This document shows positions 19,721 to 44,489 of a DNA stretch of 64,000 nt, in pieces (position 1 is the stretch's first letter; every line of letters starts with the position of its first letter). A program made the position numbers and the translations under genes. The DNA is from Macrostomum hystrix (Eukaryota; Animalia; Platyhelminthes), in contig CATNEN010000039.1 of NCBI GenBank assembly GCA_950097015.1, positions 17,174,001-17,238,000 of the forward strand, given 5' to 3'. The notes beneath the pieces are model-generated. The model did no database searches. It saw only the letters and a program-made list of their open reading frames with translations, and was not told the origin of the DNA.

Positions 19721-19732
19721 CCTCTAATACGA

Positions 19733-20030: not shown

Positions 20031-20659
20031 CATTAAAGTTAGTCCACAATAATTTTATTATGAAAATCGTTACCTACTCCAATCGGGCTCAGAAAGTTCC
20101 GGTGACTTAAGAAAGATTTTCAGCTATAACTTTGCAGACTTCCGAAAAAAAACTGAAAAATGTCTTTTTATTATCAATATTGAGTCTCAAGGCAGTACGA
20201 GTGCATGAATATTGATTTAGCTGCTCTAGTTGCAAAGCCTAGACATCAGAGTCATTGTTTAGATATTGGCACTATTTGATCTCCCTAGGGGAAAAATGTT
20301 GTATGAGGCTGACAGTTTTTTTGACGACGTACGGTTTTTTCTAGACGCAATAAATATTTCGTACAAAAATAACTCTGAGTGGGAAATGTTTTTGCGAGAC
20401 CACTGCCTAGCCTATAAGACTAATTATGTAATGACCGGAATAGGCAAGCAGATAATTCGCTCAGCATTTCCGTAATTAACAGCATGGTGAAGCATTAATA
20501 CAAGCTGGAAAGGAATCGACTGCGATTATTCCTAATCTAATTGTAGCCTTCCTAACGCTATCACAGAAAAAAAATTTTTTGCTTTTAGTTGGCTGAGATT
20601 TCTTCGGAAGTTTGAGCACTAAAGTAAGGTCAGTAACTTACCTGGCAACAAATATAGTC

Positions 20660-21870: not shown

Positions 21871-22411
21871 AATCCTAGTCCTAAAATGGCCGAAAAATCC
21901 AAGCTATTGTCCTAATATAGCCCTTAAATCCCATGTTCTTAACTTCAAGAGATCATTAAGTCCTAGAACCCAGCACTTGGACACTGATCTCGGATTCTGT
22001 CACGAGAATCGTGTGGCCTCAGATTTTTAAGTAAGGTTGCAGATAGCTTAAAGCTTTAGAAATTTTATCCCCACAAAGAAATCTTAGCCCCTACGTCACG
22101 AGAACGTTCGCGTGCTTTCCAAGCCTAACAACTGTCCCGATCATTCGGATGGAATAGTAGTATTTTGCGTTCTAGTTATCTAACAAACTGACTGTGTTTA
22201 GGTAAGAATGGCTTGCTAAAGATCTGCTTTTAAGCTCCTGTCTATAAAACTTCTTTTCACATGCTGAAATTCAAAAGAATTACTGGAAAAAATATGTACT
22301 CAATTATATTTCCCTTAGTAATTGGGTTAAGTTCAGTCCTGCCAATTGCAACAAGATTTTGGGATTAAACAGTTAAATTTTAAGACAAAAGCTCTTTACA
22401 AATGTGTTAAC

Positions 22412-25065
22412 TTATCCTACTGTCTAACAGGTTATCCTACTGTATAACAGGTTATCCTACTGTCTAACAGGTTATCCTACTGTATAACAGGTTATCCTAC
22501 TGTATAACAGGTTATCCTACTGTCTAACAGGTTATCCTACTGTATAACAGGTTATCCTACTGTCTAACAGGTTATCCTACTGTCTAACAGGTTATCCTAC
22601 TGTCTAACAGGCTATCCTACTGTATAACAGGTTATCCTACTGTCTAACAGGTTATCCTACTGTCTAACAGGTTATCCTACTGTATAACAGGTTATCCTAC
22701 TGTCTAACAGGTTATCCTACTGTCTAACAGGTTATCCTACTGTCTAACAGGTTATCCTACTGTATAACAGGTTATCCTACTGTATAACAGGTTATCCTAC
22801 TGTCTAACAGGTTATCCTACTGTCTAACAGGTTATCCTACTGTCTAACAGGCTATCCTACTGTATAACAGGTTATCCTACTGTCTAACAGGTTATCCTAC
22901 TGTCTAACAGGTTATCCTACTGTATAACAGGTTATCCTACTGTCTAACAGGTTATCCTACTGTCTAACAGGTTATCCTACTGTCTAACAGGCTATCCTAC
23001 CGTCTAACAGGTTATCCTACTGTCTAACAGGTTATCCTACTATCTAACAGGCTATCCTACTGTCTAACAGGTTATCCTACCGTCTAACAGGATATCCTAC
23101 TGTCTAACAGGTTATCCTACTGTCTAACAGGTTATCCTACTGTCTAACAGGTTATCCTACTGTCTAACAGGTTATCCTACCGTCTAACAGGTTATCCTAC
23201 TGTATAACAGGTTATCCTACTATCTAACAGGTTATCCTACTATCTAACAGGTTATCCTACTGTCTAACAGGTTATCCTACTATCTAACAGGTTATCCTAC
23301 TGTCTAACAGGTTATCCTACTGTCTAACAGGTTATCCTACTGTCTAACAGGTTATCCTACTGTCTAACAGGTTATCCTACTGTCTAACAGGTTATTCTAC
23401 TGTCTAACAGGTTATCCTACTGTCTAACAGGTTATCCTACTGTCTAACAGGTTATCCTACTGTCTAACAGGTTATCCTACTGTCTAACAGGTTATCCTAC
23501 TGTCTAACAGGTTATCCTACTGTCTAACAGGTTATCCTACTGTCTAACAGGTTATCCTACTGTCTAACAGGTTATCCTACTGTCTAACAGGTTATCCTAC
23601 TGTCTAACAGGTTATCCTACTGTCTAACAGGTTATCCTACTGTCTAACAGGTTATCCTACTGTCTAACAGGTTATCCTACTGTCTAACAGGTTATCCTAC
23701 CGTCTAGCAGGCTATCCTACTGTCTAACAGGTTATCCTACTGTCTAACAGGTTATCCTACCGTCTAACAGGTTATCCTACTGTATAACAGGTTATCATAC
23801 TGTCTAACAGGTTATCCTACCGTCTAACAGGTTATCCTACTGTATAACAGGTTATCCTACTATCTAACAGGTTATCCTACTGTCTAACAGGTTATCCTAC
23901 TGTATAACAGGTTATCCTACTGTCTAACAGGTTATCCTACTGTCTAACAGGTTATCCTACTGTCTAACAGGTTATTCTACCGTCTAACAGGTTATCCTAC
24001 TGTATAACAGGTTTTCCTACCGTCTAACAGGTTATCCTACTGTCTAACAGGCTATCCTACTGTCTAACAGGTTATCCTACCGTCTAACAGGTTATCCTAC
24101 TGTCTAACAGGTTATCCTACTGTATAACAGGCTATCCTACTGTCTAACAGGTTATCCTACCGTCTAGCAGGCTATCCTACTGTCTAACAGGTTATCCTAC
24201 TGTCTAACAGGTTATCCTACCGTCTAACAGGTTATCCTACTGTATAACAGGTTATCCTACTGTCTAACAGGTTATCCTACCGTCTAACAGGTTATCCTAC
24301 TGTATAACAGGTTATCCTACTATCTAACAGGTTATCCTACTGTCTAACAGGTTATCCTACTGTATAACAGGTTATCCTACTGTCTAACAGGTTATCCTAC
24401 TGTCTAACAGGTTATCCTACTGTCTAACAGGTTATTCTACCGTCTAACAGGTTATCCTACTGTATAACAGGTTTTCCTACCGTCTAACAGGTTATCCTAC
24501 TGTCTAACAGGCTATCCTACTGTCTAACAGGTTATCCTACCGTCTAACAGGTTATCCTACTGTCTAACAGGTTATCCTACTGTATAACAGGCTATCCTAC
24601 TGTCTAACAGGTTATCCTACCGTCTAACAGGTTATCCTACTGTCTAACAGGTTATCCTACCGTCTAACAGGTTATCCTACTGTCTAACAGGTTATCCTAC
24701 TGTCTAACAGGTTATCCTACTGTCTAACTGGTTATCCTACTGTCTAACAGGTTATCCTACTGTCTAACAGGTTATCCTACTGTCTAACAGGTTATCCTAC
24801 TGTCTAACAGGTTATCCTACTGTCTAACAGGTTATCCTACTGTCTAACAGGTTATCCTACTGTCTAACAGGTTATCCTACTGTCTAACAGGTTATCCTAC
24901 TGTCTAACAGGTTATGCTACTGTCTAACAGGTTATCCTACTGTCTAACAGGTTATTCTACTGTCTAACAGGTTATCCTACTGTCTAACAGGTTATTCTAC
25001 TGTCTAACAGGTTATTCTACTGTCTAACAGGCTATCCTACTGTCTAACAGGCTATCCTACTGTCT
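22412..25065. repeat. 20-bp satellite (TGTCTAACAGGTTATCCTAC), ~2.65 kb
   Basis: Direct inspection. Confidence 0.97.
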
Positions 25066-25429
25066 TTCCAAAAGGGAAGTTGGAAAGATTGACTTTTCCA
25101 TTCTACCAGTGATCTGCAAGCCGAAAGTGGCTGCAATTTCGTAGAAATCGACTCTTCAATCAATGCTTGGGGAGTTTAGACAACTGGTGAACGCCTGAAT
25201 AATGTATTCCTCTGGGGACTCGACAGCTCCATATTTTTGGTTGATTTTTTCAGCTCATGCGTTTAGTGGGTAGAGTTACTGCAGATTTGTACTTCTGACT
25301 ATGGAATTAATGTCTGTAGGTGATGGCTGAGGAATCAAACACAGGAAAATGCTATTTGGGATAAAAATTTTTACACATTAGATTCAGCGCAATTTAAGGG
25401 AATTTCAGCGAACATTTGGTGTCATTTTT

Positions 25430-27355
25430 TTGTATTTAGTGCCATTTTGGTTCTGTATTTAGTGCCATTTTGGTTCTGTATTTAGTGCCATTTTGGTTCT
25501 GTATATAGCTCCATTTATTGGTTCTGTATTCAGTGCCATTTTGGTTCTGTATATAGTGCCATTTTGGTTCTGTATTTAGTGCCATTTTGATTCTGTATTT
25601 AGTGCCATTTTGGTTCTGTATATAGCTCCATTTATTGGTTCTGTATTCAGTGCCATTTTGGTTCTGTATTTAGTGCCATTTTGGTTCTGTATTTAGTGCC
25701 ATTTTGGTTCTGTATTTAGTGCCATTTTGGTTCTGTATTTAGTGCCATTTTGGTTCTGTATATAGCTCCATTTTGGTTCTGTATTCAGTGCCATTTTGGT
25801 TCTGTATTTAGTGCCATTTTGGTTCTGTATATAGTGCCATTTTGGTTCTGTATTCAGTGCCATTTTGGTTCCGTATTTAGTGCCATTTTGGTTCTGTATT
25901 TAGTGCCATTTTGGTTCTGTATTTAGTGCCATTTTGGTTCTGTATATAGTGCCATTTTGGTTCTGTATTCAGTGCCATTTTGGTTCTGTATATAGTGCCA
26001 TTTTGGTTCTGTATTTAGTGCCATTTTGATTCTGTATTTAGTGCCATTTTGGTTCTGTATATAGCTCCATTTATTGGTTCTGTATTCAGTGCCATTTTGG
26101 TTCCGTATTTAGTGCCATTTTGGTTCTGTATTTAGTGCCATTTTGGTTCTGTATTTAGTGCCATTTTGGTTCTGTATTTAGTGCCATTTTGGTTCTGTAT
26201 ATAGCTCCATTTTGGTTCTGTATTCAGTGCCATTTTGGTTCTGTATTTAGTGCCATTTTGGTTCTGTTTATAGTGCCATTTTGGTTCTGTATTCAGTGCC
26301 ATTTTGGTTCCGTATTTAGTGCCATTTTGGTTCTGTATTTAGTGCCATTTTGGTTCTGTATTCAGTGCCATTTTGGTTCCGTATTCAGTGCCATTTTGGT
26401 TCTGTATTCAGTGCCATTTTGGTTCCGTATTCAGTGCCATTTCGGTTCCGTATTCAGTGCCATTTTGGTTCTGTATTCAGTGCCATTTTGGTTCTGTATT
26501 CAGTGCCATTTTGGTTCTGTATTCAGTGCCATTTTGGTTCTGTATTCAGTGCCATTTTGGTTCTGTATTCAGTGCCATTTTGGTTCCGTATTCAGTGCCA
26601 TTTCGGTTCCGTATTCAGTGCCATTTTGGTTCTGTATTCAGTGCCATTTTGGTTCTGTATTCAGTGCCATTTTGGTTCTGTATTCAGTGCCATTTTGGTT
26701 CTGTATTCAGTGCCATTTTGGTTCTGTATTCAGTGCCATTTTGGTTCCGTATTCAGTGCCATTTTGGTTCTGTATTCAGTGCCATTTTGGTTCCGTATTC
26801 AGTGCCATTTTGGTTCTGTATTCAGTGCCATTTTGGTTCCGTATTCAGTGCCATTTTGGTTCCGTATTCAGTGCCATTTTGGTTCCGTATTCAGTGCCAT
26901 TTCGGTTCCGTATTCAGTGCCATTTTGGTTCCGTATTCAGTGCCATTTTGGTTCTGTATTCAGTGCCATTTTGGTTCTGTATTCAGTGCCATTTTGGTTC
27001 TGTATTCAGTGCCATTTTGGTTCCGTATTCAGTGCCATTTCGGTTCCGTATTCAGTGCCATTTTGGTTCTGTATTCAGTGCCATTTTGGTTCTGTATTCA
27101 GTGCCATTTTGGTTCCGTATTCAGTGCCATTTTGGTTCTGTATTCAGTGCCATTTTGGTTCTGTATTTAGTGCCATTTTGGTTCTGTATTCAGTGCCATT
27201 TTGGTTCTGTATTCAGTGCCATTTTGGTTCCGTATTCAGTGCCATTTTGGTTCCGTATTCAGTGCCATTTTGGTTCTGTATTTAGTGCCATTTTGGTTCC
27301 GTATTCAGTGCCATTTTGGTTCTGTATTCAGTGCCATTTTGGTTCTGTATTCAGT
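25430..27355. repeat. 23-bp minisatellite (AGTGCCATTTTGGTTCTGTATTY)
   Basis: Direct inspection. Confidence 0.95.
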
Positions 27356-27905
27356 GTGTATATACTGTGTACTTTAACTATACCAAAAATGAAAGTGTAA
27401 ATTTTATAATTACTATTGTAGAATTTTATCTTTAATAAAAACGTTAACTTACGTTGTTAAGTTGCTGAAGAATGTTAAAAGATGAAGCCCTGCTGTTGAA
27501 AGTGATCAGTTCTTGTCTGATTGCAAGAATTCAATATCAAAGACAGTTTCAGGCACAGTTTGCACTTGTCAAATAGTAGTAGGACTTCCGTGCTAACATT
27601 GATTACCGAAGCCGCTTCACCACGGGATAATTTAGGGATCGGGTGGGATACGGAAGGGGTGGAAGGGAGGGAGAACTGAAGAAAACGATAGTAAGGATAG
27701 GAAAGGAGTGGCTGTGTTTGTAGCTGCCAATCAGAAGAAGTTGAGACTTGCTTTAACTAGCCTTGGGGTTGGGTGACTGCACAAGAGAATCAAGTTGTCT
27801 TTGAGTTGGGCTTCTCTTAAGGGATCTCCGATTAAAGATGTGGCAACATTTGTAGGGCCTTTGAATGCTTCTTTACGTGCAATAGAATTGATTGTCATCT
27901 AGGAC

Positions 27906-28400
27906 ATGGAGGATGACCGCACTGAAGGGTCATATGGAATGGAGGATGACCGCACTGAAGGGTCATATGGAATGGAGGATGACCGCACTGAAGGGTCATA
28001 TGGAATGGAGTATGACCGCACAGAAGGGTCATATGGAATGGAGTATGACCGCACTGAAGGGTCATATGGAATGGAGGATGACCGCACTGAAGGGTCATAT
28101 GGAATGGAGTATGACCGCACTGAAGGGTCATATGGAATGGAGGATGACCGCACTGAAGGGTCATATGGAATGGAGGATGACCGCACTGAAGGGTCATATG
28201 GAATGGAGGATGACCGCACTGAAGGGTCATATTGAATGGAGGATGACCGCACTGAAGGGTCATATTGAATGGAGGATGACCGCACTGAAGGATCATATGG
28301 AATGGAGGATGACCGCACTGAAGGGTCATATGGAATGGAGGATGACCGCACTGAAGGGTCATATGGAATGGAGGATGACCGCACTGAAGGGTCAAATAGA
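27906..28400. repeat. 33-bp minisatellite (ATGGAGGATGACCGCACTGAAGGGTCATATGGA)
   Basis: Direct inspection. Confidence 0.95.
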
Positions 28401-28763
28401 ATGGATTTCCTAAATTACATTTTACTTGTGTGAGTTTGGTTCTCAACAGCAAAGCAAACAGGTCTATTAGTGTTTTTTCGGTCGAAATTTTTTGCTTTTA
28501 GATTTTGATCTGCCTTTTTGTGTATTTGAAATGAATGCTCTGTTATTTACAATAGGCGTACCATTTCAAAGCTTCATACTCAGTTGATTTAATCCAGATA
28601 TTTCGATTTGCAAGAACATTTATGAGACGGCTAGTTTTCTTCTCAAACGAATTCCAAAGAGGCGAAAAAAGAGAAAATAAAATATAATTCCTCCCTCTTT
28701 CGTTACCTAAACTGCTAAGTCAGCACTACTGCGAGTAGACATGAAGAGACTTGCTCTTGATTA

Positions 28764-29622
28764 AGTGAGTGAGGAAGAAGCTGGTTCTAGGCTGAGTGAG
28801 TGAGGAGGGAAGCTGGTTCTAGGCTGAGTGAGTGAGGAGGGAAGCTGGTTCTAGGCTGAGTGAGTGAGGAGGGAAGCGGGTTCTAGGCTGAGTGAGTGAG
28901 GAGGGAAGCTGGTTCTAGGCTGAGTGAGTGAGGAGGGAAGCTGGTTCTAGGCTGAGTGAGTGAGGAGGGAAGCTGGTTCTAGTCTGAGTGAGTGAGGAGG
29001 GAAGCTGGTTCTATGCTGAGTGAGTGAGGAGGGAAGCTGGTTCTAGTCTGAGTGATTAAGGAGGGAAGCTGGTTCTAGGCTGAGTGAGTGAGGAGGGAAG
29101 CTGGTTCTAGGCTGAGTGAGTGAGGAGGGAAGCTGGTTCTAGGCTGAGTGAGTGAGGAAGCTGGTTCTAAGCTGAGTGAGTGAGGAGGGAAGCTGGTTCT
29201 AGGCTGAGTGAGTGAGGAGGGAAGCTGGTTCTAGGCTGAGTGAGTGAGGAGGGAAGCTGGTTCTAGGCTGAGTGAGTAAGGAGGGAAGCTGGTTCTAAGC
29301 TGAGTGAGTGAGGAGGGAAGCTGGTTCTAGGCTGAGTGAGTGAGGAGGGAAGCTGGTTCTAGGCTGAGTGAGTGAGGAGGGAAGCTGGTTCTAGGCTGAG
29401 TGAGTAAGGAGGGAAGCTGGTTCTAAGCTGAGTGAGTGAGGAGGGAAGCTGGTTCTAGGCTGAGTGAGTGAGGAGAGAAGCTGGTTCTAGGCTGAGTGAG
29501 TGAGGAAGCTGGTTCTAAGCTGAGTGAGTGAGGAGGGAAGCTGGTTCTAAGCTGAGTGAGTGAGGAGGGAAGCTGGTTCTAGGCTGAGTGAGTGAGGAGT
29601 GAAGCTGGTTGAATGGTGAGTG
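28764..29622 (+). repeat. 32-bp minisatellite (GCTGGTTCTAGGCTGAGTGAGTGAGGAGGGAA), array 1
   Basis: Direct inspection. Confidence 0.95.
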
Positions 29623-29937
29623 AGAAGACAATATTCAGACTCAGAATTATACAATTCACTAAAGTAATTTTTTGCAGATTCTATTGCTTTCAAAGTTGCA
29701 CGAACTCATTCAGCTGAGACGTGCAATCCGATTGTATTTTACTGTTTATTTGAAGCAAGCAGTTTTGATCAATTGGATGATGAAAACGAAACGACGCAAA
29801 AATATAGGTAGTATTTCATTGTAATTCAGTCTGATAAGTACTGCCAGTACAAGCAAAAGTTAGTAATAAAAAAATACGACAGACATTCATGAAAATTTCG
29901 ATGTCCTTGACTTCTGATTACTAGCTTGGCTTAGTGT

Positions 29938-32900
29938 TCAACACGCCTGTAGTAGGTACAGCGAGTCTTTCGTAGCAGCGAAGATGTCGATGACCCACGA
30001 CTTCGACTTGCCGGCGTTTCTGGCGCCTTCCATCAGCGGTTGCTCGTTCAGACAGCAGATGGCGACGAAGGACTGACCGCCTTCAGAAGCCGGGTGGGTC
30101 AGCGCGACGCAGCCCAGCTCCTCGCTGACGCTGTAGATGTTTCCCTTGTCTCTGCACAGGGTTAGCAGCCGCTGGATGGCTTCGTCTCCAGCTGGGGCCG
30201 ACTCGTCTGCCGACGATCGGGGCGACGGTAGGGCGAGGAGTCGACCTGGCTGTAGGCCCTCGAATTTCCAGTTACTGACCTGCCGAGGGTGAAAAATAAT
30301 TTGACAGTCACTCACTGACATTGTTGGAATTTGCTGTCAGCACTACTGCGAGTAGACGTAAATAGACTTGCTTAAGTGTGAGTGAGGAGGAAGCTGGTTC
30401 TAGGCTGAGTGAGTGAGGAGGGAAGCTGGTTCTAGGCTGAGTGAGTGAGGAGGGAAGCTGTTTCTAGGCTGAGTGAGGGGGAAGCTGGTTCAAGGCTGAG
30501 TGAGTGAGGAGGGAAGCTGGTTCTAGGCTGAGTGAGTGAGGAGGAAGCTGGTTCTAGGCTGAGTGAGTGAGGAGGGAAGCTGGTTCTAGGCTGAGTGAGT
30601 GAGGAGGGAAGCTGTTTCTAGGCTGAGTGAGGGAGACGCTGGTTCTAGGCTGAGTGAGTGAGGAGGGAAGCTGGTTCTAGGCTGAGTGAGTCAGGAGGGA
30701 AGCTGGTTCTAGGCTGAGTGAGTGAGGAGGGAATCTGTTTCTAGGCTGAGTGAGGGGGAAGCTGGTTCTAGGCTGTGTGAGTCAGGAGGGAAGCTGGTTC
30801 TAGGCTGAGTGAGTGAGGAGAAAGCTGGTTCTAGGCTGAGTGAGTGGGGAGGGAAGCTGGTTCTAGGCTGAGTGAGTGGGGAGGGAAGCTGGTTCTAGGC
30901 TGAGTGAGTGAGGAGGGAAGCTGGTTCTAGGCTGAGTGAAGAGGAAGCTGGTTCTAGGCTGAGTGAGTGGGGAAGGAAGCTGGTTCTAGGCTGAGTGAGT
31001 CAGGATGGAAGCTGGTTCTAGGCTGAGTGAGTCAGGAGGGAAGCTGGTTCTAGGCTGAGTGAGTGGGGAGGGAAGCTGGTTCTAGGCTGAGTGAGTCAGG
31101 AGGGAAGCTGGTTCTAGGCTGAGTGAGTGAGGAGGGAAGCTGGTTCTAGGCTGAGTGAGTGAGGAGGGAAGCTGGTTCTAGGCTGAGTGAGTGAGGAGGG
31201 AAGCTGTTTCTAGGCTGAGTGAGGGGGACGCTGGTTCTAGGCTGAGTGAGTGAGGAGGGAAGCTGGTTCTAGGCTGAGTGAGTGAGGAGGGAAGCTGGTT
31301 CTAGGCTGAGTGAGGGGGACGCTGGTTCTAGGCTGAGTGAGGAGGAAGCTGGTTCTAGACTGAGTGAGGAGGGAAGCTGGTTCTAGGCTGAGTGAGTGAG
31401 GAGGAAGCTGGTTCTAGGCCGAGTGAGTGAGGAGGGAAGCTGGTTCTAGGCTGTGTGAGTCAGGAGGGAAGCTGGTTCTAGGCTGTGTGAGTGAGGAGGG
31501 AAGCTGGTTCTAGGCTGAGTGAGTGAGGAGGGAAGCTGGTTCTAGGCTGAGTGAGGGGGACGCTGGTTCTAGGCTGAGTGAGGAGGAAGCTGGTTCTAGA
31601 CTGAGTGAGGAGGGAAGCTGGTTCTAGGCTGAGTGAGTGAGGAGGAAGCTGGTTCTAGGCCGAGTGAGTGAGGAGGGAAGCTGGTTCTAGGCTGTGTGAG
31701 TCAGGAGGGAAGCTGGTTCTAGGCTGTGTGAGTGAGGAGGGAAGCTGGTTCTAGGCTGAGTGAGTGAGGAGGAAGCTGGTTGTCAACTGTGAGTGAGAGG
31801 AATATGGTAGTAAAATTATAATACTCCACTGTACGAGAATAAACCGGTGTTGTTTAGTTTTACGAGTGCATATTTTTACACGAACTCAGAATGAACGCGT
31901 TAAAACTTGATTGAGCATTTAGATCAGTGCAAACTCTGCTATGTGGATGCATTGGCAACTAGAGTAATGAAAATACACAGTAATTAGTATCTGTGTGAAA
32001 ATCAGTCGAATGAATAAATGTTAGAGTTGCATTATAGACTTGTCTCTAGGATGCAACGCTTTGATTAGTCTATGGTCTAAAGTCTGCTGCGCAACCCCTG
32101 TACGGACATGAAATCAGAGAAGCTATCAATCTATTTAAGCAACACTAATTTTTAGCTTAACTAAAAGTGCATGCGGCAGCAGCTATGACCCAATACATCT
32201 ATAAGAAGAGTTGCGGAATCGCGCATACGAACTGCACCGTCGGTGCGATGACGGCTGCAGCGCCGTCAGCCCAGAAGCTCGTGGCTCCGACAGTCGAGAT
32301 GAGGCCCAGACGGACTAGAAGAGCCCGTTTAGTGCACTTCATCCGGCGATTGTTCACTGCGCCACTACTAGCACCGCCTGAAGTTGTTGACTGCGGACTA
32401 GGCTGTGGACTTGGCGCTGTTCCTTCGACTCAAGCCTGCTCAGATGACGACGAAACCGATGATGTCAGCTGCCGCCAGACTTGCACACAGTTGCAGCAGC
32501 AGCACTCGTGCCAAAGTCCCCACTGTAGAATTCAACATCGCGGTTCCATCCGCTATCGGCTCGTCATCAAGTTGGTCGAGGCGGACGGCTCGGCGTCTCC
32601 GCCCAATCAGGACACGCCTCGTCCGACTCCTTCGCCGCCGCCGACGCCGCCGAAGCGGCCCTCCCAGCCGAACAGAATTACGCCAAACTCCATCTCTGCC
32701 GAGTTTCGTCAGGCGGCATTTCCGCTGGAGGCATTTCCATCGACTGACTCCCGTCAAACCAGCTGTTCCGATGCTGCTACAGCGATGCCTGCAGAACAAG
32801 CGACTGAGTTTTCAACGCCTAGACGCCCAGCTCCATCGTTGCAGCCTTCGACACTGAGTTCGACAGGGTCGTTGTTAACGAAGGACCAGCCTGAAGTTCT

Positions 32901-35900
32901 GAACCGCAATGCCCCCAATACTGGTGGTTCTGTCAACGCTAGTCTGCAGCGAGCTCCATTGAGCCTGCGGGAGCTGATTGCCTCATCGCACGCGGACAAA
33001 AGGCTTGAAGTGCCAGCAGAAGCTGATGCTTCTGTAAGGTGCAAAACATTTCCCAAATTACACAAGGTCACCGCTCAAATTCTGTGGCAGCATCTGGAGA
33101 CCACGGCTCTGCTACCGCCGCCGCCAACAAGCAGATCTGCAATCACCACTAAGATGACGCTTGTGGACATTGGTGCTCATAATTGCCTGCTACAGGTGCA
33201 CCAGGAGAAGCAGTCCACTGTGAAGGACGGACCTCCAACAGATCTGGCAGTTTTTCAAGCCCGAGATTGCGAATTTCGCGGTCGCGTTTGCATGGTCGCC
33301 CAGATTCCAAGACTCTCGCGCATGCCAGACATTGCTGAAACTGTTGAAGGCTCAAATCAGCGGGCCGAAGCTGACTCGAAGCAGTCTGTGGCAACTGACG
33401 CTGTGGATCATGCGACAGCGACAAGACCCGAGTCGACAACGGCGTTCGTTGGTCGCGTTGCACAGACGGTGCAACGGTTCAATTCCATGTCGATACCGAA
33501 TATGAAGGAAGCTGTCAAGAAGTCAGCAGTTGTGATTCCAAAAACGATCATTCAGCAGAGGCAGCTGCGTCAGAACAACCTGCTGCAGAAGAGGCTAGGC
33601 GAGCTGAAGCATAATAATCAATATTCAGTTTCAGCAACGGCGTCGTCGAAAACGACCGCTGAAGTCAGGCCTGTGCTTAGAGCCACCAGTGAGAAGGAAC
33701 CTATTTCAATAGTCGACACGAATTGTGTTCAAACTGCTGAGTCAGCTGATACCAAGACAAGGATGAGCCTGTCCGACCTGTTGGCTCGATTTGAGTCTCT
33801 CGACAGGCGCAGGTGTGAACGAACGGCAGCTTCAAAGGCGATGGCTAGCGAGGCAGCGGCCAGGGTGGCATCGGCTGGGCTGAAGACGCCAGCTTCAACT
33901 GCTCCACTTGAGCTGCCTCAACCGGCCATAGAAATGGTTGCTGACGCCTCGACGGTAGGTAAGGACAAACCTTGCCTCTCAGGCGAAGTGAATCCTGAGA
34001 CTCAGCAGCGACTGGAAATCTCAGAATCGAATGTTCAATTCTCGTGTGCCGACATCTTAATTTACTTCTTCGTGGTACTGCTAGTACTGATAGTAGCCTA
34101 TGTAATACATACTGAATTAATTTAAATACTACTTAAAGTAGATTACAGGGACCGAAACGCCTAATTATTTCACTTTGATCAATGTCTTAGCAGAGCATTT
34201 TTAGCCCAAATTCTGATTTTATTTTTGCTTCCATTCTCTGGAAGTTTATTACTTTTTTCTCCCAGTAAGTTGGCAGAATTTTACGACGCATTACAAATAC
34301 CAATAGCAGCGATAGTCATACGAATACTTCATTTTTGCTGTCAATTAACTCAAAATATATTAGACTAATTAGTCAGCACTTCACTCTGAGAGTAGTTGCT
34401 GAGCAGCAGATTCTGGTAGAAATTGCTAAAATAATGCCGAATTCTCAATCTGGCTAATTCAGAAATAAAGCACACCAAAAACAGCGAAGGCAATGTGACA
34501 TAAAAACATATGCTTTAATATTTACTGTTGATTTTTTAACAAAACAAGACGCTTCCGTCCTTACTCAGCATAGAACCAGCTTCCCTCCTCACTCACTCAG
34601 CCTAGAACCAGCTTCCCTCCTCACTCACTCAGCCTAGAACCAGCTTCCCTCCTCACTCACTCAGCCTAGAACCAGCTTCCCTCCTCACTCACTCAGCATA
34701 GAACCAGCTTCCCTCCTCACTCACACAGCATAGAACCAGCTTCCCTCCTCACTCACTCAGCCTAGAACCAGCTTCCCTCCTCACTCACACAGCATAGAAC
34801 CAGCTTCCCTCCTCACTCACACAGCATAGAACCAGCTTTCCTCCTCACTCACACAGCATAGAACCAGCTTCCCTCCTCACTCAGCAATGAACCAGCTTCC
34901 CTCCTCACTCAGCAATGAACCAGCTTCCCTCCTCACTCAGCAATGAACCAGCTTCCCTCCTCACTCAGCAATGAACCAGCTTCCCTCCTCACTCAGCAAT
35001 GAACCAGCTTCCCTCCTCAATCACTCACACAGCCTAAAGCCAGCTTCCCTCCTCACTCACTCACACAGCCTAAAGCCAGCTTCCCTCCTCACTCACTCAC
35101 ACAGCCTAAAGCCAGCTTCCCTCCTCACTCACTCAGAATAGAACCAGCTTCCCTCCTCACTCACACAGCCTAGAACGAGCTCCTTGAGGAAACTCCTGGC
35201 TGCTCACCTTCATCCAGTCCTTGGTGCTTGCTGGCGCTGCTTCTTGCTTCTCAGCAGCCTCCGGTGGCGGTCGGCGCATCGGAAAGGACAACAGCCGATG
35301 CTTGACTTGGCCTGTGGCGAGGCCGTTGGGGCTGGAGGACTGTTGCATCGACACCCAGCAGCGCGGCACCTGACCCTCGGCATTCGTACAGGCAACGAAT
35401 TCCGGCCTGTGCCAGCTCCGAGTCCCCAGCTGGATTTTGAACAGTTTTCTTTTGAAGTCGTCGCTCATCTTAAAAATCTGCGAGCCGTGACCGTCGGGCG
35501 TCGGGCTGGCAACAACCAGCTGATCGTCGGTTGGGTCGATGTCGAATCCTAGGAACCGTGGCTGCGGTAGCTCCTTGGAGGCCTGAAACCAGAACAAAAT
35601 TCAGTCTGGAGACATTGTGTTTTTTTATTTAATATTTTCATTGAGGTTTTGTATTCTACACCGTATTTGCATCCGCCTCTCGCTCCCAGGTCCCTGAGCC
35701 CGATTCCGCGGCAAAGCCGCATTTATTTGGGTTGAAGCTGCGGAGAGAAGGCTTGGTGGCTTGTCGTGCAATCTACGCCCTTAAGGGCCAAGGCACTGAG
35801 AAAGTGTACACTGCCTGACGATGAGAAAGTCAGGGGCAGATGTACACACCAGTGTGAGTGTGTGCCTGCGTACAGTATCTGTGTGCGTGTGTGCTCATTA

Positions 35901-38900
35901 TTCAGTGGAAGAGGCAGAATTGCCTACAGCCCTACAGCCTTCCTACAAATATTATCTACTCTGTTTTTTCATTCTGTGGCTTTATCATTTGGTATAGGCC
36001 ATTCGTTAAGTAAGTCTACAAGACCTCTCTCCACGGTCGCACCCCTAATGTAGCTCAGGATCATTGGTGCGCGAGGAGTGAGTTCCGAAACGATACATTC
36101 GGTTATAATTCGGTTATAATTCGGTTATAATTATAAATTGTTTCAGCAAAAGTTTCGTCTAACTTCACTACGAAACAAGTTATAATAAAATAACGTATAG
36201 TTCGCCTCACCTCCACTAGAGGTTGTAGCCTAGTGGTTAGGGCGTCGGACTCACGACTTGAAGGTCGGGGGTTCGATTCCTGACTCCCCTGAACAATTTG
36301 TGTCCTTTAGCAAGACACTTAACTCTGCATTGCTTCAGTTCACCCAGCTGTTAAATGGGTACCAGCATCAGCTGGGATAATTGAAGGTGGGTGTGGCGTC
36401 CCCCCAGTCCATGGACTGAACAGCTGTACGCAGCCTTCAGATGCGCCGCGCATTAGCTGCGGCTGTGCTGTCGGCTGCACATCTGACCCAATTGGGGCAG
36501 GTGTAATCAATTAATCAATTATAGTTCGCAATGATATGAAACTGAAAACTTGGTCAGTTACTAGCGATGGAGACCTGATTAGTGCCGAGAAACACGAATG
36601 TGCGTCAGTGCGATTAAGAATTTTTCTGATCTTATCGTGTGCACTGTAAACTCTTAAGTTATAAAAAATGCTACATTTTCAACTGTTGCCCCTACAGTGA
36701 AGCCGTTTCTAAGGCCCGACCATTTTTATTAACCATTTGCGTTTGCTGCATCTGCGCCGATTGAGACAGCTACGATAATAATTTCATAATTTTTCCGTTT
36801 TAACGCGTTGTTAACTTTTTTAGCAATATTAATTTGTTTGGTTGAAATTAAAAGCAGCCACTTCGGCGGCACCCAACCCAACATGACCGGATGTTCATGG
36901 TCGCCGTCGATGTCCTTATCAGATAGTGAATTGTTTAGTTAGAGAGAGGCAACCTAAGGGTATCTACAATCACGAGCAAATAAATTTGGCTAGATTTCCA
37001 CATTGTATACAGGCGAATACCTGTATTCAAACTCAAGGCATTGCCGGGGCCTGTGTGGCGACCTTATCAAATGTTTACAGTGAAATGGCTGAAATAAGAA
37101 TTTCACATATTTATATATGTCAGCTAGTAAGAAACGCAGGGTAAGGGAGATTGGGTTATTTTAAGCAACGTGAGCATTGTAATTTTTTTGACAGGCAATT
37201 TAATCTTACGTTTTTCGTAAACGTTAAACGAGCGTACAGTTAAAACAAATAGTTCATTTTTATGTTGTTCGTTTCTATACGAGCGTATCGTCATTATTAA
37301 AGTAATATATTATTTATTTAATTATGTTTTCCTAATGAAATTGTGGTGACGTGACTCTGGTTGCGGCTAGCAGGCCCAGTCGAGGGCAAGATGCTGCTGG
37401 TGGTCCTCGATGCCCACTCCAAGTGGATGGACGTGCATGTCATGACGTCCAAAACTTCGGCTGCGACCATCCAGAGGCTGCGGCAGAGCTTCTGCACTCA
37501 TGGGCTGCCAGACATCATCGTGACGGACAGCGAGGAGATGGAGAAGTTTCTGCAGCAGAACGGCATCCGGCACGTGCGGACCGCGCCCTACCACCCGGCG
37601 GCCAACGGGCAGGCGGAGCGAGCGGTCCAAACGCTAAAGAAGTCGCTGGCGAAGCAGAAGAGCGGCTCGCTGGAGAACCGGGTGGCGCGCTTCCTGCTGA
37701 CCTACCGCGTGACGCCCCACGCCACGACTGGCGCCCCGCCATGTCAGCTGCTGATGGGGAGGCGGCTGCGGTCCCTACTCGATCGAGTGCGGCCCGATCT
37801 TCCAGCGAGGGTGGCTCTCCAGCAAGCGATACAGAAACAGCAACACGACGCCAACGCCCGTGATCGCCACATCGAGGTAGGCGATGCTGTGGTGGCGAGA
37901 GACTTCGCGGCAGATGGCAGATGGAAGCTTGCAGTGGTGACTGCCAGCGTCTTTCTCGTGCCAGTTCGACGACGGCCGGCAGGCTCAGCGCCACATCGAT
38001 CAGCTGCGCAAGCCGCTGCCAACCGCGCCAGCCGCTGCGGCCCAGGAGTCGGAAACCGAGCCGGTCGCGGAACCGGCGGCAGCGGAAACCCAGACATCTG
38101 CTGCGGCAGCTGCTGTCGCCAGCGACGCCGCAGGCACGGGCAACTCGGTGCCGATTCGACGGTCAACCAGACAGCGAGCTGCACCTGACAGACTGAGCTT
38201 TTTTTTAGTCACTGACATTTTTTTGTCATGACTTTTGCTTTGCTTCATGGTTAATTACTTTGATTGCTTTATTCCCCGGTTCCAGATTTTTTTGTGGGGA
38301 GGGATGTGGTGACGTGACTCTGGTTGCGGCTGGCTAAGGCAGGTGTGTTGTGCACCTGCCCGCACGTTATCTAATTATTTAGATGTAGATGTAAAGTGTG
38401 TGTACGTGCTTTTAACCTTTTAACGTTTCTATCCTATGTGCACGCGCGGAGTCCCTAATACTGCTATCGATTTGATCAATATAAAAGTCACTGCATCATC
38501 TCTTTGAGAGGTTGAGAATCGTTCTACGAGTTGGGATCTGTGGAGTGAACCATCTATTGTGTGTGTGTCTTGGGATCTGTGGAGTGAACCATCTATTGTG
38601 TGTGTGTCTTGGGATCTGTGGAGTGAACCATCTATTGTGTGTCTGTCTTGAGATCTGTGGAGTGAACCATCTATTGTGTGTCTGTCTTGAGATCTGTGGA
38701 GTGAACCATCTATTGTGTGTCTGTCTTGAGATCTGTGGAGTGAACCATCTATTGTGTGTGTGTCTTGGGATCTGTGGAGTGAACCATCTATTGTGTGTGT
38801 GTCTTGGGATCAGTGGAGTGAACCATCTATTGTGTGTCTGTCTTGGGATCTGTGGATTGAACCATCTATTGTGTGTGTGTCTTGGGATCTGTGGATTGAA

Positions 38901-40522
38901 CCATCTATTGTGTGTGTGTCTTGGGATCCGTGGAGTGAATCATCTATTGTGTGTCTGTCTTGGGATCTGTGGAGTGAACCATCTATTGTGTGTCTGTCTT
39001 GGGATATGTGGAGTGAACCATCTATTGTGTGTCTGTCTTGGGATCTGTGGATTGAACCATCTATTGTGTGTGTGTCTTGGGATCCGTGGAGTGAATCATC
39101 TATTGTGTGTCTGTCTTGAGATCTGTGGAGTGAACCATCTATTGTGTGTCTGTCTTGGGATCTGTGGAGTGAACCATCTATTGTGTGTCTGTCTTGGGAT
39201 CTGTGGAGTGAACCATCTATTGTGTGTCTGTCTTGAGATCTGTGGAGTGAACCATCTATTGTGTGTCTGTCTTGAGATCTGTGGAGTGAACCATCTATTG
39301 TGTGTCTGTCTTGAGATCTGTGGAGTGAACCATCTATTGTGTGTGTGTCTTGGGATCTGTGGAGTGAACCATCTGTGGAGTGAACACACAACCATCTATT
39401 GTGTGTGTGTGTGTCCTGGGACGAGTACAATCTTAAGCAAAGTCTTTTTACATAAACAATTACTTCTATTGTCATTATCATAAAATAAGTTATCACTCAC
39501 ACTAAATTGCCACTGTTTCAAATGGGTTTTACTCCAAAGCCTTTCTCGTGAGAGTTTATAAGCTTCAGAGAAGCCATTTTTTGTTTTCTTTTACTTTTGT
39601 TTTTCTGGTATTACTCACAAAGCTCGTCAGTTCAAATAAAATATGTTAGTCTTTGTTCAAAGAGATTTCATGTTATTCCGTTCAAAAAACACCTATTGTT
39701 ATCATGCTTGTTTTACTGAATTGAAATCCTAGGAAAATTCTTCGTTACTGATTTACTCACCTGTTCAACCACGCCGTCAAAACTGCAGCGCACAATAGCT
39801 GACAACGGCACAGAAGCATCTCCAACCTTTCTCTTCAGGTGTCCGCAAACGTACAGTCGCTCTTTGTACACCTTGACATCGGTTGGGCGCAGCTTGACGC
39901 CGCCGTGAAGCCGGATCTGCAAGATTTTGCACGCCTTGGCCATCAACAGATCCGAGCTGGCCGACTTTGACCGCGTGTCCAGCCTCAGAATGTCTGGCGA
40001 GTCTTTGAAGATCAAGAAGGCCAGGCCGTTGTTGGACATTGCTATCCCCACAATGTCACCGTCCACTAACGGACGATTCTGCTCCTCGGCGTTTTCCTGG
40101 GCGTCGCCAGTGGAGTCCAGGAGCAGATTCTCCCGGCTGCTGGCGTTGAACTCCTCGTCGGCTCGCAGGCTGGCCACGTTCAGCAGCATGAAGGTTCGAT
40201 AGCCACCGCGGCTGCTGGCTTTGGGACTGAGTCCGGTACTCTCCGGCGCGATATTCTCTTCGTCGGTTTCCAGCAGCGGCTGGTGCAGAAGCTGATGATC
40301 GTCGTGGCCTCTGACCGGGATGTAGGCACTCAGAATGTCGCTGAGGCGTTTCAGACTGTCGCGACCTTTGGTGCGCCGAAATGTGACCGGGGCGCCGGGG
40401 GCAAAGGAGCCCAGGTCGACGCTGGGTTCGTCGGCCGCTGCTATGTCAGCCTCCATGCTGCTGCCGGCTGGGTGCTCTTTCTCATGGCGTCGACGAAGAG
40501 CTGCGGTGTCCGCTGCAGCCAT
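29938..40522 (-). CDS. Uncharacterised ~492-aa protein; disordered N-terminus plus possible beta-propeller (NHL/TolB-like) region
   Basis: Exons 40522-39761, 35582-35208 and 30279-29938, both introns phase 0 with GTGAG donors and CAG acceptors. Repeated beta-strand-like segments (IVGIAMSNNGLAFL, PTDVKVYKERLYVC, LGFDIDPTDDQLVV, LGCVALT) suggest propeller blades; the fold is an inference. Confidence 0.75.
30375..31798 (+). repeat. 32-bp minisatellite, array 2 (same orientation as array 1)
   Basis: Direct inspection. Confidence 0.95.
32248..34125 (+). CDS. Intronless orphan ~625-aa Pro/Ser/Thr-rich protein with a single C-terminal transmembrane helix (tail-anchored), nested antisense in intron 2 of the 29938-40522 gene
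   Basis: Non-repetitive GC-rich 652-codon ORF (32167-34125) in AT-rich surroundings. TATAAG near 32200 precedes ATG 32248 (ATG 32185 is an alternative). C-terminal hydrophobic run ILIYFFVVLLVLIVAYVI followed by HTELI*. Confidence 0.75.
   Translation: MTAAAPSAQKLVAPTVEMRPRRTRRARLVHFIRRLFTAPLLAPPEVVDCGLGCGLGAVPSTQACSDDDETDDVSCRQTCTQLQQQHSCQSPHCRIQHRGSIRYRLVIKLVEADGSASPPNQDTPRPTPSPPPTPPKRPSQPNRITPNSISAEFRQAAFPLEAFPSTDSRQTSCSDAATAMPAEQATEFSTPRRPAPSLQPSTLSSTGSLLTKDQPEVLNRNAPNTGGSVNASLQRAPLSLRELIASSHADKRLEVPAEADASVRCKTFPKLHKVTAQILWQHLETTALLPPPPTSRSAITTKMTLVDIGAHNCLLQVHQEKQSTVKDGPPTDLAVFQARDCEFRGRVCMVAQIPRLSRMPDIAETVEGSNQRAEADSKQSVATDAVDHATATRPESTTAFVGRVAQTVQRFNSMSIPNMKEAVKKSAVVIPKTIIQQRQLRQNNLLQKRLGELKHNNQYSVSATASSKTTAEVRPVLRATSEKEPISIVDTNCVQTAESADTKTRMSLSDLLARFESLDRRRCERTAASKAMASEAAARVASAGLKTPASTAPLELPQPAIEMVADASTVGKDKPCLSGEVNPETQQRLEISESNVQFSCADILIYFFVVLLVLIVAYVIHTELI
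34555..35178 (-). repeat. 32-bp minisatellite, array 3 (inverted relative to arrays 1 and 2)
   Basis: Units TTCCCTCCTCACTCACTCAGCCTAGAACCAGC are the exact reverse complement. Confidence 0.95.
35672..35955 (+). mobile_element. SINE family A copy (5' degraded, internal deletion)
   Basis: Shares the body with the 14064 element, including ctgcctgacgatgagaaagtcagg. Confidence 0.8.
36206..36519 (+). mobile_element. tRNA-derived SINE family B with CORE-like central domain, full-length copy
   Basis: tRNA head (TAGCCTAGTGG; GGTTCGATTCC), central TGTGTCCTTTAGCAAGACACTTAACTCTGCATTGCTTCAGTTCACCCAGCTGTTAAATGGG, candidate TSD TATAGTTCGC (36196-36205 / 36520-36529). Confidence 0.85.
37342..38500 (+). mobile_element. 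Internally deleted Ty3/Gypsy LTR retrotransposon (integrase remnant, polypurine tract, 3' LTR)
   Basis: Integrase-like translation AGPVEGKMLLVVLDAHSKW...GLPDIIVTD...TAPYHPAANGQAERAVQTLK...YRVTPHATTG. The 27-mer TGTGGTGACGTGACTCTGGTTGCGGCT occurs at 37342 and 38305, the second copy directly after the purine tract GGGGAGGGA. The LTR 3' end is uncertain. Confidence 0.88.
38531..39420. repeat. 39-bp minisatellite (TTGGGATCTGTGGAGTGAACCATCTATTGTGTGTSTGTC)
   Basis: Direct inspection. Confidence 0.95.
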
Positions 40523-40571
40523 GATGGATTCTTGCGATGTTGTCGCCTCTAACAGATGATAGAGGAAGGTG

Positions 40572-40655
40572 AGTGGCTGAGATGTCAAATGCCTCCGCGC
40601 CGAGGCCACACTTATTTGGGACGTAGCCGCCGAGAGAAGGCTTGTCGTGAAAGAC
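40572..40655 (+). mobile_element. SINE family A fragment
   Basis: cgaggccacacttatttggg..agccgccgagagaaggcttgtcgtg matches the family A 5' body. Confidence 0.6.
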
Positions 40656-41035
40656 ACCGCACGTCTCACGCCCCAGCGCCAACGCACACAACTCACACAA
40701 CGCAGAACAGGCACACAGAAAGGTAGGAGCGAAGCTATTATTTCAAGCTTTGATTGCACGAAATATGGTGCACCTCCGCCGGTCGCTACAGTCCAAACCC
40801 ACCAACAAGTCCCGAAATTAATCGTGACTTGAAGGGTGAATCGAACTAGCGTCCTTTGGAGTGCGAGGCAGCGACGTTAGCCGCTGACCCACTCGCCCCC
40901 TGGATTCGCCATAGAACAATGAACATAGTACAGAGCAATTTTTGTTCTTGTCACCAGGGTATTTTCACAGTTGTCACAAAAAAACGAGATCGCTGAATAT
41001 CTCGAAGATCCTGGCTAGGACGGTTTTGAAAATTA

Positions 41036-41096
41036 CGTGTACACACCTGTGTGCGTGTGTGCTCAGGAATCAGCGAAATGGGCGGAATTGCCTCCT
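41036..41096 (+). mobile_element. SINE family A internal fragment
   Basis: gtacacacctgtgtgcgtgtgtgctcagg..tcagcgaaat..gaattgcctc is nearly identical to 14269-14327. Confidence 0.7.
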
Positions 41097-42678: not shown

Positions 42679-44489
42679 ATGTCGTCGACTCCGTTCAACC
42701 TGGACAAGGTGCAAACTCGGGACTTCACACCTGAGCCGAGAAAGCCGCACTCCAAGGCCACCAGGGAGGCGCAGTACCTCATCGACCAGGTGGGCCCAGC
42801 GTTGACAGCTGGCGTGTCTCAAATTGTTCAACAGAAGCCGCGCGATCCTATTGAATTTCTCAGTCAGTACCTGATGAAATACGCCGACTCGATTCGCTAC
42901 CACAAGGAGCAGGAGGAGCTGGCGCAGAGGATCAAGGAGGAGGAGGAGGTGAATGAGGGGAACGGGATGTCATTGTTAAACATCTACCCACTCGTAGATG
43001 AGCTGTTAGATCGCTGTTCCAAAATGATCAAATTATATCAGAACGAATCTATTAAGGAACGCAGCTTTTAGACAAAAACGCGGATGGAAAATTCGGAAAT
43101 ACGTCGCAATACAAAAATAGAAATGTCGTTACTGCTAAGGGCAGAGCTGTCTGACGGATGGAGCACTCATCTTCAAACGTCTGGTGCTTCCACGATTTAT
43201 CCGAAGTGTCTTGCAACAGGACAAAACTTTTTTTGGAGTCCGGAATCGAACCCCCGACCTTCAAGTCGTGAGTCGGACGCTCTAACGATTAGGCTACAAC
43301 CCTGCAAAGCCAACGGCCACTCAGAAATTACCATCGTCGCACAATTTATGAAGCATTCGCAATCGAAAACCAATTATCCGCAGGCCGAGCGTCTTGAAGA
43401 GCTTCGACGCAAGGAGATCGCGGAGGAGCAGCGCCAGATGCTGGAGCGCAAACGCCAGCTGGAGCGGGAGCGCGCCGAAGAGGAGGAGCGACAGCGCCGA
43501 GAGGCCGAAGAAGCTCGACTCCGCGCCGAAGAGGAGGAGCGACAACGGGCCGAGCGGGCGGCCGCCGAGGTTGAAATCCCGGAGGGCGACGCCGACGATG
43601 ACGGCGAGACGAAGGAGGACGGCGAAGGTAATACAAGTCGAGTTTCCTTGGCAAATATAGTCAATGGAAAATAAGGCTATAGCGACCTTAATTTGGGACG
43701 TTGTTAAGACTTTCTTTTCGATGCCGATGTTCCGGCACCCACGCACAGTGTACACATCTGCCTCTGATTTTCTTGTCGTCAGGCTCAGTGTCCACTCTCA
43801 CTGTGCCTTGGCTGTTGGTTTCAAGGTCGTAAATTTCCGAGCCAAAAGATAAAATAGGTAATCTTAGAAGCGACATTTTAACTACAAATCCTTGAGAGTA
43901 AGCAGTTCTTTGAAGTAGGAGTTTTAACCTAGAGGTTAGAGCATGGACTAACGACCTGGAGGTCGTGCAGGGGTTCGATTCCCGAATTCACTGGAGCAAC
44001 TTGCGTATTTTTGCAGGACACTCACTCTACATCGCTTCAGTTAGCTGTGTGCTAGCATTATGGGGTATTAAGGGTGGGTGTGACGTCCTTCCAGTCCATG
44101 GACTGAACAGCCGTACGCAGACTTCAGATGCTCCGCGCAATAGCTGCAGCTGAGCTGCTGTCGGCTGCATATCTGGCTTAATTGAGCAGTTGTAATAAGT
44201 TAGTATTACTTTTAAGTTATAAAGTTTTGATAGTTCTATTTATAGCAACAAAGAACCAGGCAAAAATATTTATTTCGATTTATTTTCGTTCAGAAAAGTT
44301 TTGTAAAGCTGCTTATGTTACATCACAGGCGAGACATCAGCTGCTCCACCAGCTGATCAGGAGGGCGAGTCAGCTGAACCTGCGGCTGGCGATGATACTG
44401 TCGCAGCCGAAGGCAATCAAGAAGGCGAGGCTGAGGCCGAGGCTGAGGGCGAGGGCGAGGCGGCGGAGGAGGAGGAAGATGCGGAATGA
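42679..44489 (+). CDS. DYDC: DPY30 domain-containing protein (DYDC1/2-like, probably ciliary), ~224 aa
   Basis: Exons 42679-42948, 43384-43627 and 44329-44489 (675 nt). Dpy-30 motif YLIDQVGPALTAGVSQIVQQKPRDPIEFLSQYL, then an E/R coiled coil and an acidic tail. Confidence 0.8.
43203..43302 (-). mobile_element. SINE family B 5' fragment (tRNA head)
   Basis: Reverse complement reads ggttgtagcctaatcgttagagcgtccgactcacgacttgaaggtcgggggttcgattcc, as at 36221. Confidence 0.75.
43925..44197 (+). mobile_element. SINE family B copy (diverged)
   Basis: Shares ggttcgattcc, ccagtccatggactgaacag and gctgtcggctgca with the 36206 copy. Confidence 0.8.

What the first reader, a model, noticed from the sequence alone, without database searches (positions are those of the whole stretch)
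30280..35207. Intron bracketed by complementary minisatellite arrays that could loop out a nested antisense gene
Seen: intron 2 (30280-35207) of the minus-strand orphan gene has the 32-bp minisatellite about 30 nt inside its donor (array 3, 34555-35178) and the reverse complement of the same minisatellite about 95 nt inside its acceptor (array 2, 30375-31798). Between the arms lies an intronless ~625-aa gene on the opposite strand. This is the only array family I saw in both orientations in the window. Inference: the pre-mRNA could form a duplex of up to ~600 bp, in many registers, that brings donor and acceptor together. This would be a minisatellite analogue of the (AC)n/(GT)n-bridged introns known in fish. 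It could also be an ADAR or Dicer substrate. Architecturally the block also resembles a foldback (FB-NOF-like) composite, with tandem-repeat arms around a cargo ORF.
Basis: partly seen in the sequence, partly recalled or inferred. Interest (0 to 1): 0.8.

Follow-up and report, generated by a model that had tools for sequence, protein, structure and literature searches.

The report
Inverted minisatellites bracket nested flatworm gene
A flatworm intron that is really spliced out holds a second, opposite-strand gene between two mirror-image repeat arrays predicted to pair into a 580-base-pair RNA stem, most likely a by-product of a repeat spreading locally rather than a device needed for splicing.

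Summary
The anatomy is real. A 32-bp minisatellite lies 26 nt inside the donor and, inverted, 95 nt inside the acceptor of a 4.9-kb intron. Contigs from 3 of 4 runs join its exons. An intronless 646-codon gene on the other strand lies between the arms, covered by contigs with a poly(A) end. Folding predicts 581 arm-arm pairs.

The case for function is weak:
- A third array of the family lies beyond the host stop codon, pairs better with the donor arm, and shares a unique flank with the acceptor arm.
- The bridging register is not favoured, and the donor-nearest units are the most diverged.
- The acceptor keeps an ordinary T-rich tract.
- Arrays fill 42% of the window, and 6 of 9 other array-bearing introns have one within 100 nt of a splice site.

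The host is no orphan: it is the Macrostomum DUF5736 gene. The foldback reading fails: no target-site duplication, no inverted unique flanks, no transposase. Best reading: a tolerated inverted repeat from local minisatellite spread (0.6). A functional bridge that also hides the arrays' own decoy splice signals stays open (0.2). No genome-wide test was possible.

The parts
39761..40522 (-). Host gene exon 1, coding part (DUF5736 gene, M. lignano BOX15_Mlig004041 homolog)
   Evidence: tblastn 60% to P0001 residues 4-272; contig lengths place the 5' end near 40620-40645
35208..35582 (-). Host exon 2
   Evidence: PF19007 DUF5736, E 8.7e-12; 76% to P0001; joined to exon 3 in contigs
30280..35207 (-). 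Host intron 2, 4,928 nt, GT..AG
   Evidence: spliced contigs in 3 of 4 runs; three exons give 492 codons with no internal stop, the length of P0001
34555..35181 (-). Array 3: about 19-20 units, purine-rich on the host pre-mRNA, 26 nt from the donor; 16 GTGAGT donor-like words
32137..34506 (+). Nested intronless transcript: adaptor-like loose end at 32137, AATAAA at 34464, poly(A) loose end at 34506
   Evidence: X2 contig 32137-34500 and X3 contig 32159-34477, without gaps
32185..34125 (+). Nested ORF, 646 aa, Ala/Ser/Thr/Pro-rich, one hydrophobic 19-residue stretch at 624-642 (predicted tail anchor); no homolog found
   Evidence: 3 of 3 coding differences in run X9 are synonymous
30375..31798 (+). 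Array 2: about 45 units, pyrimidine-rich on the host pre-mRNA, 95 nt from the acceptor; 46 CTCAC and 134 YAG words on that strand
30293..30372 (+). Unique flank of array 2, homologous to the flank of array 1 (28674-28755); core 37 nt 92% identical
   Evidence: blastn E 3e-7; score 184 against shuffle maximum 108
29938..30279 (-). Host exon 3, coding part to the stop; 3' UTR continues to about 29676-29759, AATAAA at 29745
28764..29625 (+). Array 1: about 27 units, same orientation as array 2, downstream of the host stop and of the 3' ends of the contigs

Best explanation
The 4.9-kb intron of a Macrostomum DUF5736 gene is spliced out and carries an opposite-strand intronless gene between two inverted arrays of one minisatellite, which are predicted to pair in the pre-mRNA but most likely arose by local spread of the repeat and are likely tolerated rather than needed for splicing.

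Shown: the three arrays, the exon junction, contigs over the nested gene, and the flank shared by arrays 1 and 2.

Inferred:
- One local duplication carried a flank plus repeat seed and gave arrays 1 and 2.
- A unit-only copy landed inverted beside the donor and expanded into array 3.
- The arrays sit near the splice sites because exons and the nested gene with its promoter and poly(A) site likely leave only the intron margins free.
- The duplex would form co-transcriptionally, first in the register farthest from the acceptor, and splicing would rely on the ordinary donor, branch region and T-rich tract.
For: - Array 1 lies beyond the stop and beyond the contig 3' ends (29676-29759), yet it gives 20 of the 25 longest inverted matches to array 3 and the best duplex energies.
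- Arrays 1 and 2 share a unique flank, so array 2 has a non-splicing origin.
- There is no preference for the bridging register.
- Units 3-10 from the donor differ by 3-6 edits from any array 2 unit, while units 14 and 17-19 are exact. Arrays 2 and 3 share only the consensus unit, with no mirrored variants.
- 27 arrays fill 42% of the window.
- 6 of 9 other array-bearing introns that I could place have an array within 100 nt of a splice site (by-eye gene models).
- A second family also occurs in both orientations.
- Acceptor pyrimidine share is 0.65, against 0.45-0.75 at six other acceptors.
- The 4.2-kb intron 1 of the same gene has no inverted repeat, and contig lengths imply that it is spliced.
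Against: - The arms sit at the two ends of one intron, and the whole-intron fold anchors the stem at the acceptor-near end of array 2, closing the ends to about 120 nt.
- None of the 9 other array-bearing introns examined shows a complementary pair, so the arrangement is not common here.
- On the pre-mRNA the arms carry 16 GTGAGT donor-like words and 46 CTCAC branch-like words, yet only the correct junction was seen at the acceptor, which pairing could explain.
- A by-product origin does not exclude later use.
- All tests are from one window; the base rate rests on 9 introns out of 24 other arrays.
Confidence: 0.6

Rival explanations
1. Functional bridge and shield. The arms pair to loop out the nested gene, shorten the donor-acceptor distance to 120-900 nt, and hide the decoy donors and decoy branch/AG words that the arrays themselves carry. 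Whatever its origin, the pair is now kept by selection.
For: 581 predicted arm-arm pairs, 93% of array 3. Arms 26 and 95 nt from the splice sites. The unit reads as a donor consensus on one strand and a branch-like word on the other (consensus motifs recalled). Precedent: AC/GT bridges are needed for accurate 3' splice site use in zebrafish (PMC4691745, parts 1-2 read).
Against: No register preference, a better partner outside the gene, no mirrored variants, divergence highest next to the donor; ordinary acceptor tract. The fish introns have repeats within 40-50 nt of both ends that obscure the tract (PMC4691745).
Confidence: 0.2
2. Inversion scar. One long array was split by an inversion with a breakpoint inside it, which flipped part of the array and the 2.7-kb middle block to the far end. 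The arms could still drive flip-flop recombination of the nested gene.
For: An inversion that starts inside an array gives exactly this layout. Array 3 lacks the flank shared by arrays 1 and 2. Array 1's right flank matches array 3's inner flank weakly (p 0.013, one of 72 comparisons).
Against: Array 2's inner end resembles array 1's end over about 55 nt (borderline, not significant over the longer flank), where a clean break is expected. The p 0.013 match is about what 72 tests give by chance. No alternative orientation was looked at.
Confidence: 0.12
3. Foldback (FB-NOF-like) composite transposon with tandem-repeat arms and a cargo ORF, inserted in the intron.
For: Long inverted arms made of tandem repeats around a middle block with one ORF.
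Against: No 8-10 bp direct repeat with up to 1 mismatch outside the arms. No inverted match between unique flanks. No Pfam family and no homolog for the ORF. In DNA run X1 one contig of 1,779,433 records covers the whole middle with no differences. The M. lignano model P0002 changes frame just before VSVWKF, which suggests the intron position predates this species (inference).
Confidence: 0.04

Closest known systems
(AC)m-(GT)n bridged introns of fish (Lin et al. 2016, PMC4691745; abstract, parts 1-2 of 7 and passages read)
   Same: Complementary tandem repeats at the two ends of one intron, predicted to form an intron-spanning stem in many registers.
   Different: 32-bp units and arms of 0.6 and 1.4 kb instead of dinucleotide runs; 3' arm 95 nt from the acceptor with the T-rich tract left free; a 2.4-kb gene in the loop; a third copy outside the gene; no class-level enrichment or function shown.
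Stems from oppositely oriented SINEs/LINEs in large vertebrate introns (Shepard et al. 2009, PMC2773006; abstract only)
   Same: Repeat copies in opposite orientation in one intron give a predicted stem as a result of repeat spread; a splicing role was hypothesised, not shown.
   Different: Here the arms are a tandem minisatellite, the intron is 4.9 kb rather than over 50 kb, and the animal is an invertebrate; that abstract reports such repeats as abundant in vertebrates, unlike the invertebrates studied.
Foldback transposons (Tetris, PMC4079207; passages read; FB-NOF recalled)
   Same: Long inverted arms with internal tandem repeats around a middle domain.
   Different: No inverted flanking or inner domain, no 8-10 bp target-site duplication, no transposase, no second copy seen.
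Helentron-derived HINE elements carrying central tandem arrays (oyster, PMC7492417; passages read)
   Same: Arrays 1 and 2 share a left flank in the same orientation relative to the array; such elements insert in both orientations.
   Different: Shared flank is only 40-80 nt, the right flank match is borderline, array 3 has no such flank, and no microsatellite is seen in the flank.
Nested intronless antisense genes in introns (recalled general class)
   Same: Single-exon gene wholly inside an intron on the opposite strand, with its own poly(A) signal.
   Different: No homolog found for its protein; it is bracketed by inverted minisatellites.

Membership tests
(AC)m-(GT)n bridged introns | AC and GT dinucleotide repeats | tested here: not met
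   32-bp unit
(AC)m-(GT)n bridged introns | Complementary repeats at opposite ends of one spliced intron | tested here: met
   26 and 95 nt from the sites; spliced; inside the paper's 200-nt window, outside its 40-50 nt definition at the 3' end
(AC)m-(GT)n bridged introns | Predicted stem across the intron | tested here: met
   581 pairs in the minimum-energy fold; prediction only, no shuffle control
(AC)m-(GT)n bridged introns | 3' repeat obscures branch point and pyrimidine tract | tested here: not met
   95 nt of unique sequence; T-rich tract, pyrimidine share 0.65, unpaired in the fold
(AC)m-(GT)n bridged introns | Genome-wide co-enrichment across introns, not exons | not testable with these tools
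   no genome held
(AC)m-(GT)n bridged introns | Stem needed for accurate splicing; U2AF2-independent | not testable with these tools
   needs minigenes and knockdown
Foldback transposon | Long inverted arms with internal tandem repeats | tested here: met
Foldback transposon | Inverted non-tandem flanking or inner domains | tested here: not met
   no significant inverted match between the flanks of arrays 2 and 3
Foldback transposon | 8-10 bp target-site duplication | tested here: not met
   none at 8-10 bp with up to 1 mismatch
Foldback transposon | Transposase-like cargo | tested here: not met
   no Pfam family, no homolog among 1.84 billion representatives
Foldback transposon | Multiple dispersed copies | tested here: inconclusive
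   one full-length contig without differences in DNA run X1; identical copies would collapse; no genome
HINE / Helentron-derived array carriers | Conserved left and right flanks in fixed orientation to the array | tested here: inconclusive
   left flank shared by arrays 1 and 2, right flank borderline, none at array 3
HINE / Helentron-derived array carriers | subTIR, inverted repeat, microsatellite, 3' palindrome | not tested
   only read by eye; needs many copies
Nested antisense gene | Transcript wholly inside a spliced intron, opposite strand, own 3' end | tested here: met
   gap-free contigs 32137-34500 and 32159-34477, poly(A) on + at 34506, AATAAA at 34464; run kind is a guess by the tool

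The most novel reading that the evidence does not exclude
Macrostomum uses minisatellites as splicing bridges. A unit that reads as a donor on one strand and a branch point on the other is placed in inverted arrays at intron ends, so that pairing silences both sets of decoys and loops a nested antisense gene out of the host pre-mRNA. That would be a minisatellite-based class of structured introns in an invertebrate.
Probability: 0.15. Interest if true: 0.75.

Novelty: new variant of a known kind. Interest (0 to 1): 0.36.

Why it matters
If it is a by-product, it shows that a flatworm pre-mRNA tolerates a predicted ~580-bp duplex next to its splice sites. That makes it a ready test locus for RNA editing and small-RNA handling in a model genus where transgenesis exists (PMC5730564, listing and passages). 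If the pair is functional, it would extend repeat-bridged splicing from fish dinucleotides to minisatellites and give a use to the arrays that fill introns here. One genome-wide count would decide much of this.

Tried and rejected
- Own-genome search: none held, so no genome-wide orientation test and no copy count.
- Exact 32-mer in metagenome contigs: 0 hits.
- No run was on record as RNA ('no RNA holder listed'). X10 had nothing laid. X9 covers the nested gene only in three pieces.
The two A>G differences in X9 lie among five other kinds of change and in another coded organism, so I read them as alleles.
- Nested protein: no hit in the word-indexed search (lengths 355-1131 only), Pfam, 1.84 billion representatives or the Atlas; not in the collection exactly.
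- Rfam 28000-41000: 0 matches.
- The repeat at 35675-35925 first looked like a paralog's 5' end; it is a dispersed element with copies elsewhere in the window.
- Target-site duplications around the array 1 and array 2 units: none of 7-10 bp.
- Literature: no paper on minisatellite-bridged introns came up (0 papers; 83 papers, 20 titles seen; 0) or 52 (0). The library lacks most subscription journals, so absence from print is not shown.
- Earlier scan findings: none relevant.
Full report
Setting. The window is animal DNA crowded with tandem arrays: 27 arrays cover 42% of it. Exon 2 of the host gene finds Macrostomum lignano BOX15_Mlig004041g1 (492 aa, 77% identity, E 2e-55) and Pfam DUF5736. 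I infer that the window comes from another Macrostomum species. No genome is held for it. In M. lignano simple and tandem repeats make up 15% of the assembly and introns average 1.1-1.4 kb (PMC5730564, passages). A paper on two other species says their repeat content was not analysed in detail (PMC10468722, passages).

Host gene and intron. tblastn places the homolog on three minus-strand exons: 40522-39761, 35582-35208 and 30279-29938. Together they give 492 codons without an internal stop. The homolog runs straight across the intron 2 junction. Of 4 runs laid on 29630-30372, three (X2, X5, X7; two coded studies) have a contig that leaves exon 3 at the acceptor and goes on with letters found only at 35210 onward; X10 had nothing laid. 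The tool only guesses the kind of these runs; spliced contigs imply RNA. The contigs end at 29676-29759, around an AATAAA at 29745, before array 1. No poly(A) was seen there, so this 3' end is a hint. The gene is thus not an orphan, though a search with the M. lignano protein returned only M. lignano hits (3 proteins). The Atlas gives weak leads to NHL beta-propellers (0.88).

Nested gene. The ORF 32185-34125 (+) has 646 codons. Contigs cover it without gaps in X2 (32137-34500) and X3 (32159-34477). X2 has a poly(A) loose end at 34506, about 40 nt after AATAAA at 34464 (five templated A's precede it), and a 25-letter loose end before 32137 that I recall as a full-length cDNA adaptor; that label comes from no call. 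The transcript therefore stops short of both arrays. All 3 coding differences in run X9 are synonymous third positions, modest support for a real protein. It has one hydrophobic stretch at 624-642 and no homolog in four searches.

Arrays. There are three, not two: 28764-29625 and 30375-31798 in one orientation, 34555-35181 in the other. Array 3 is 26 nt from the donor and array 2 is 95 nt from the acceptor. Folding the intron with 30 nt of each exon gives -2236 kcal/mol and 581 pairs between arrays 3 and 2, anchored near the acceptor end (no shuffle control). The duplex is a sound prediction.

Is the pair built for bridging? Five tests on the sequence say no or are neutral.
(1) Register: array 3 against ten 650-nt windows of array 2 gives -1083 for the acceptor-nearest and -1086 to -1127 for the rest. 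The first 300 nt of array 2 to be transcribed already give -561; pairing that starts there would leave up to about 870 nt before the acceptor.
(2) Partner: array 1, beyond the stop, pairs better (-1148 to -1176) and gives 20 of the 25 longest inverted matches.
(3) Variants: units 3-10 from the donor differ from the nearest array 2 unit by 3-6 edits, units 14 and 17-19 by none, and arrays 2 and 3 share only the consensus unit.
(4) Acceptor: 95 nt of unique sequence with a T-rich tract, pyrimidine share 0.65 against 0.45-0.75 at six other acceptors. In the zebrafish exemplar the GT run obscures this tract (PMC4691745).
(5) Base rate: of 9 other introns with an array that I could place by eye, 6 have it within 100 nt of a splice site, one only 11 and 15 nt from both. 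These models are not RNA-checked, two donors were set 1-2 nt off, and 15 of the other 24 arrays were not placed.

Origin. Arrays 1 and 2 share a unique left flank (core 37 nt, 92%, E 3e-7; score 184 against a shuffle maximum of 108). Array 3 lacks it. A second family is also spread locally in both orientations: 5533-6122 and 22412-25065 share 15 letters inverted, against at most 12 in 276 null pairs among 24 arrays. Local reseeding with flips is the simplest source of an inverted pair (inference). An inversion breaking one long array would give the same layout; the flank evidence for and against it is borderline.

What keeps the functional reading alive. No other intron examined has a complementary pair. 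On the host strand array 3 carries 16 GTGAGT words just after the true donor, and array 2 carries 46 CTCAC and 134 YAG words just before the true acceptor. Since these words are each other's reverse complement, pairing would hide both sets. Only the correct junction was seen, but contigs drop rare forms and I viewed it from the acceptor side only.

Foldback. Such elements have inverted flanking and inner domains and 8-10 bp target-site duplications (PMC4079207, passages). Here there is no such duplication, no inverted match between unique flanks, no transposase, and one difference-free contig over the middle among 1,779,433 records of DNA run X1, which may be this assembly's own source. Rejected.

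Comparison and verdict. It would work like the fish AC/GT bridge or the repeat-derived stems proposed for large vertebrate introns (PMC2773006, abstract), but it is not a member of the fish class: two defining features were tested and not met. I found no paper on minisatellite arms (open-licence library only; no supplements read). The anatomy is confirmed and unusual, the function is unshown, and the sequence evidence leans to a tolerated by-product: 0.6, against 0.2 for a functional bridge, 0.12 for an inversion scar and 0.04 for a foldback element.

Noticed in passing
window 1-630, 5533-6122, 22412-25065: Arrays with periods 12, 21 and 20 share a core word, in both orientations; at 5509-5533 about one and a half units in the opposite orientation abut the start of the array, as if the strand flipped at the seed.
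   Followed up: partly
window 14076-14402, 19733-20025, 35675-35925, 43735-43835, 60887-61256, 40594-40644 and 41038-41096: A dispersed ~300-bp element, about 80% identical between copies; pieces flank the host gene's 5' end, where contig lengths put the transcript start.
   Followed up: no
window 36221-36510, 43204-43301, 43921-44202, 55427-55667, 59882-60082: A second dispersed element with a tRNA-like head by eye, probably a SINE; Rfam gave no match in 28000-41000.
   Followed up: no
window 37342-38334: An integrase-like ORF fragment (37391-38188, named by eye) between 30-bp direct repeats inside host intron 1, probably a retroelement remnant.
   Followed up: no
window 52373-53188: An intron of a FAM21-like gene (named by eye) is almost wholly one 16-bp array, 11 nt from the donor and 15 nt from the acceptor.
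   Followed up: partly
window 53535-53884 and 54775-54950: Tandem arrays that lie in coding exons and are read as 21-aa and 7-aa repeats.
   Followed up: no
window 10423-28405: About 18 kb made mostly of six large arrays with short AT-rich spacers and no gene that I could recognise.
   Followed up: no
P0001 / host gene: DUF5736 protein with only M. lignano hits in my search; Atlas leads point to an NHL six-bladed propeller, below the 0.9 threshold.
   Followed up: partly
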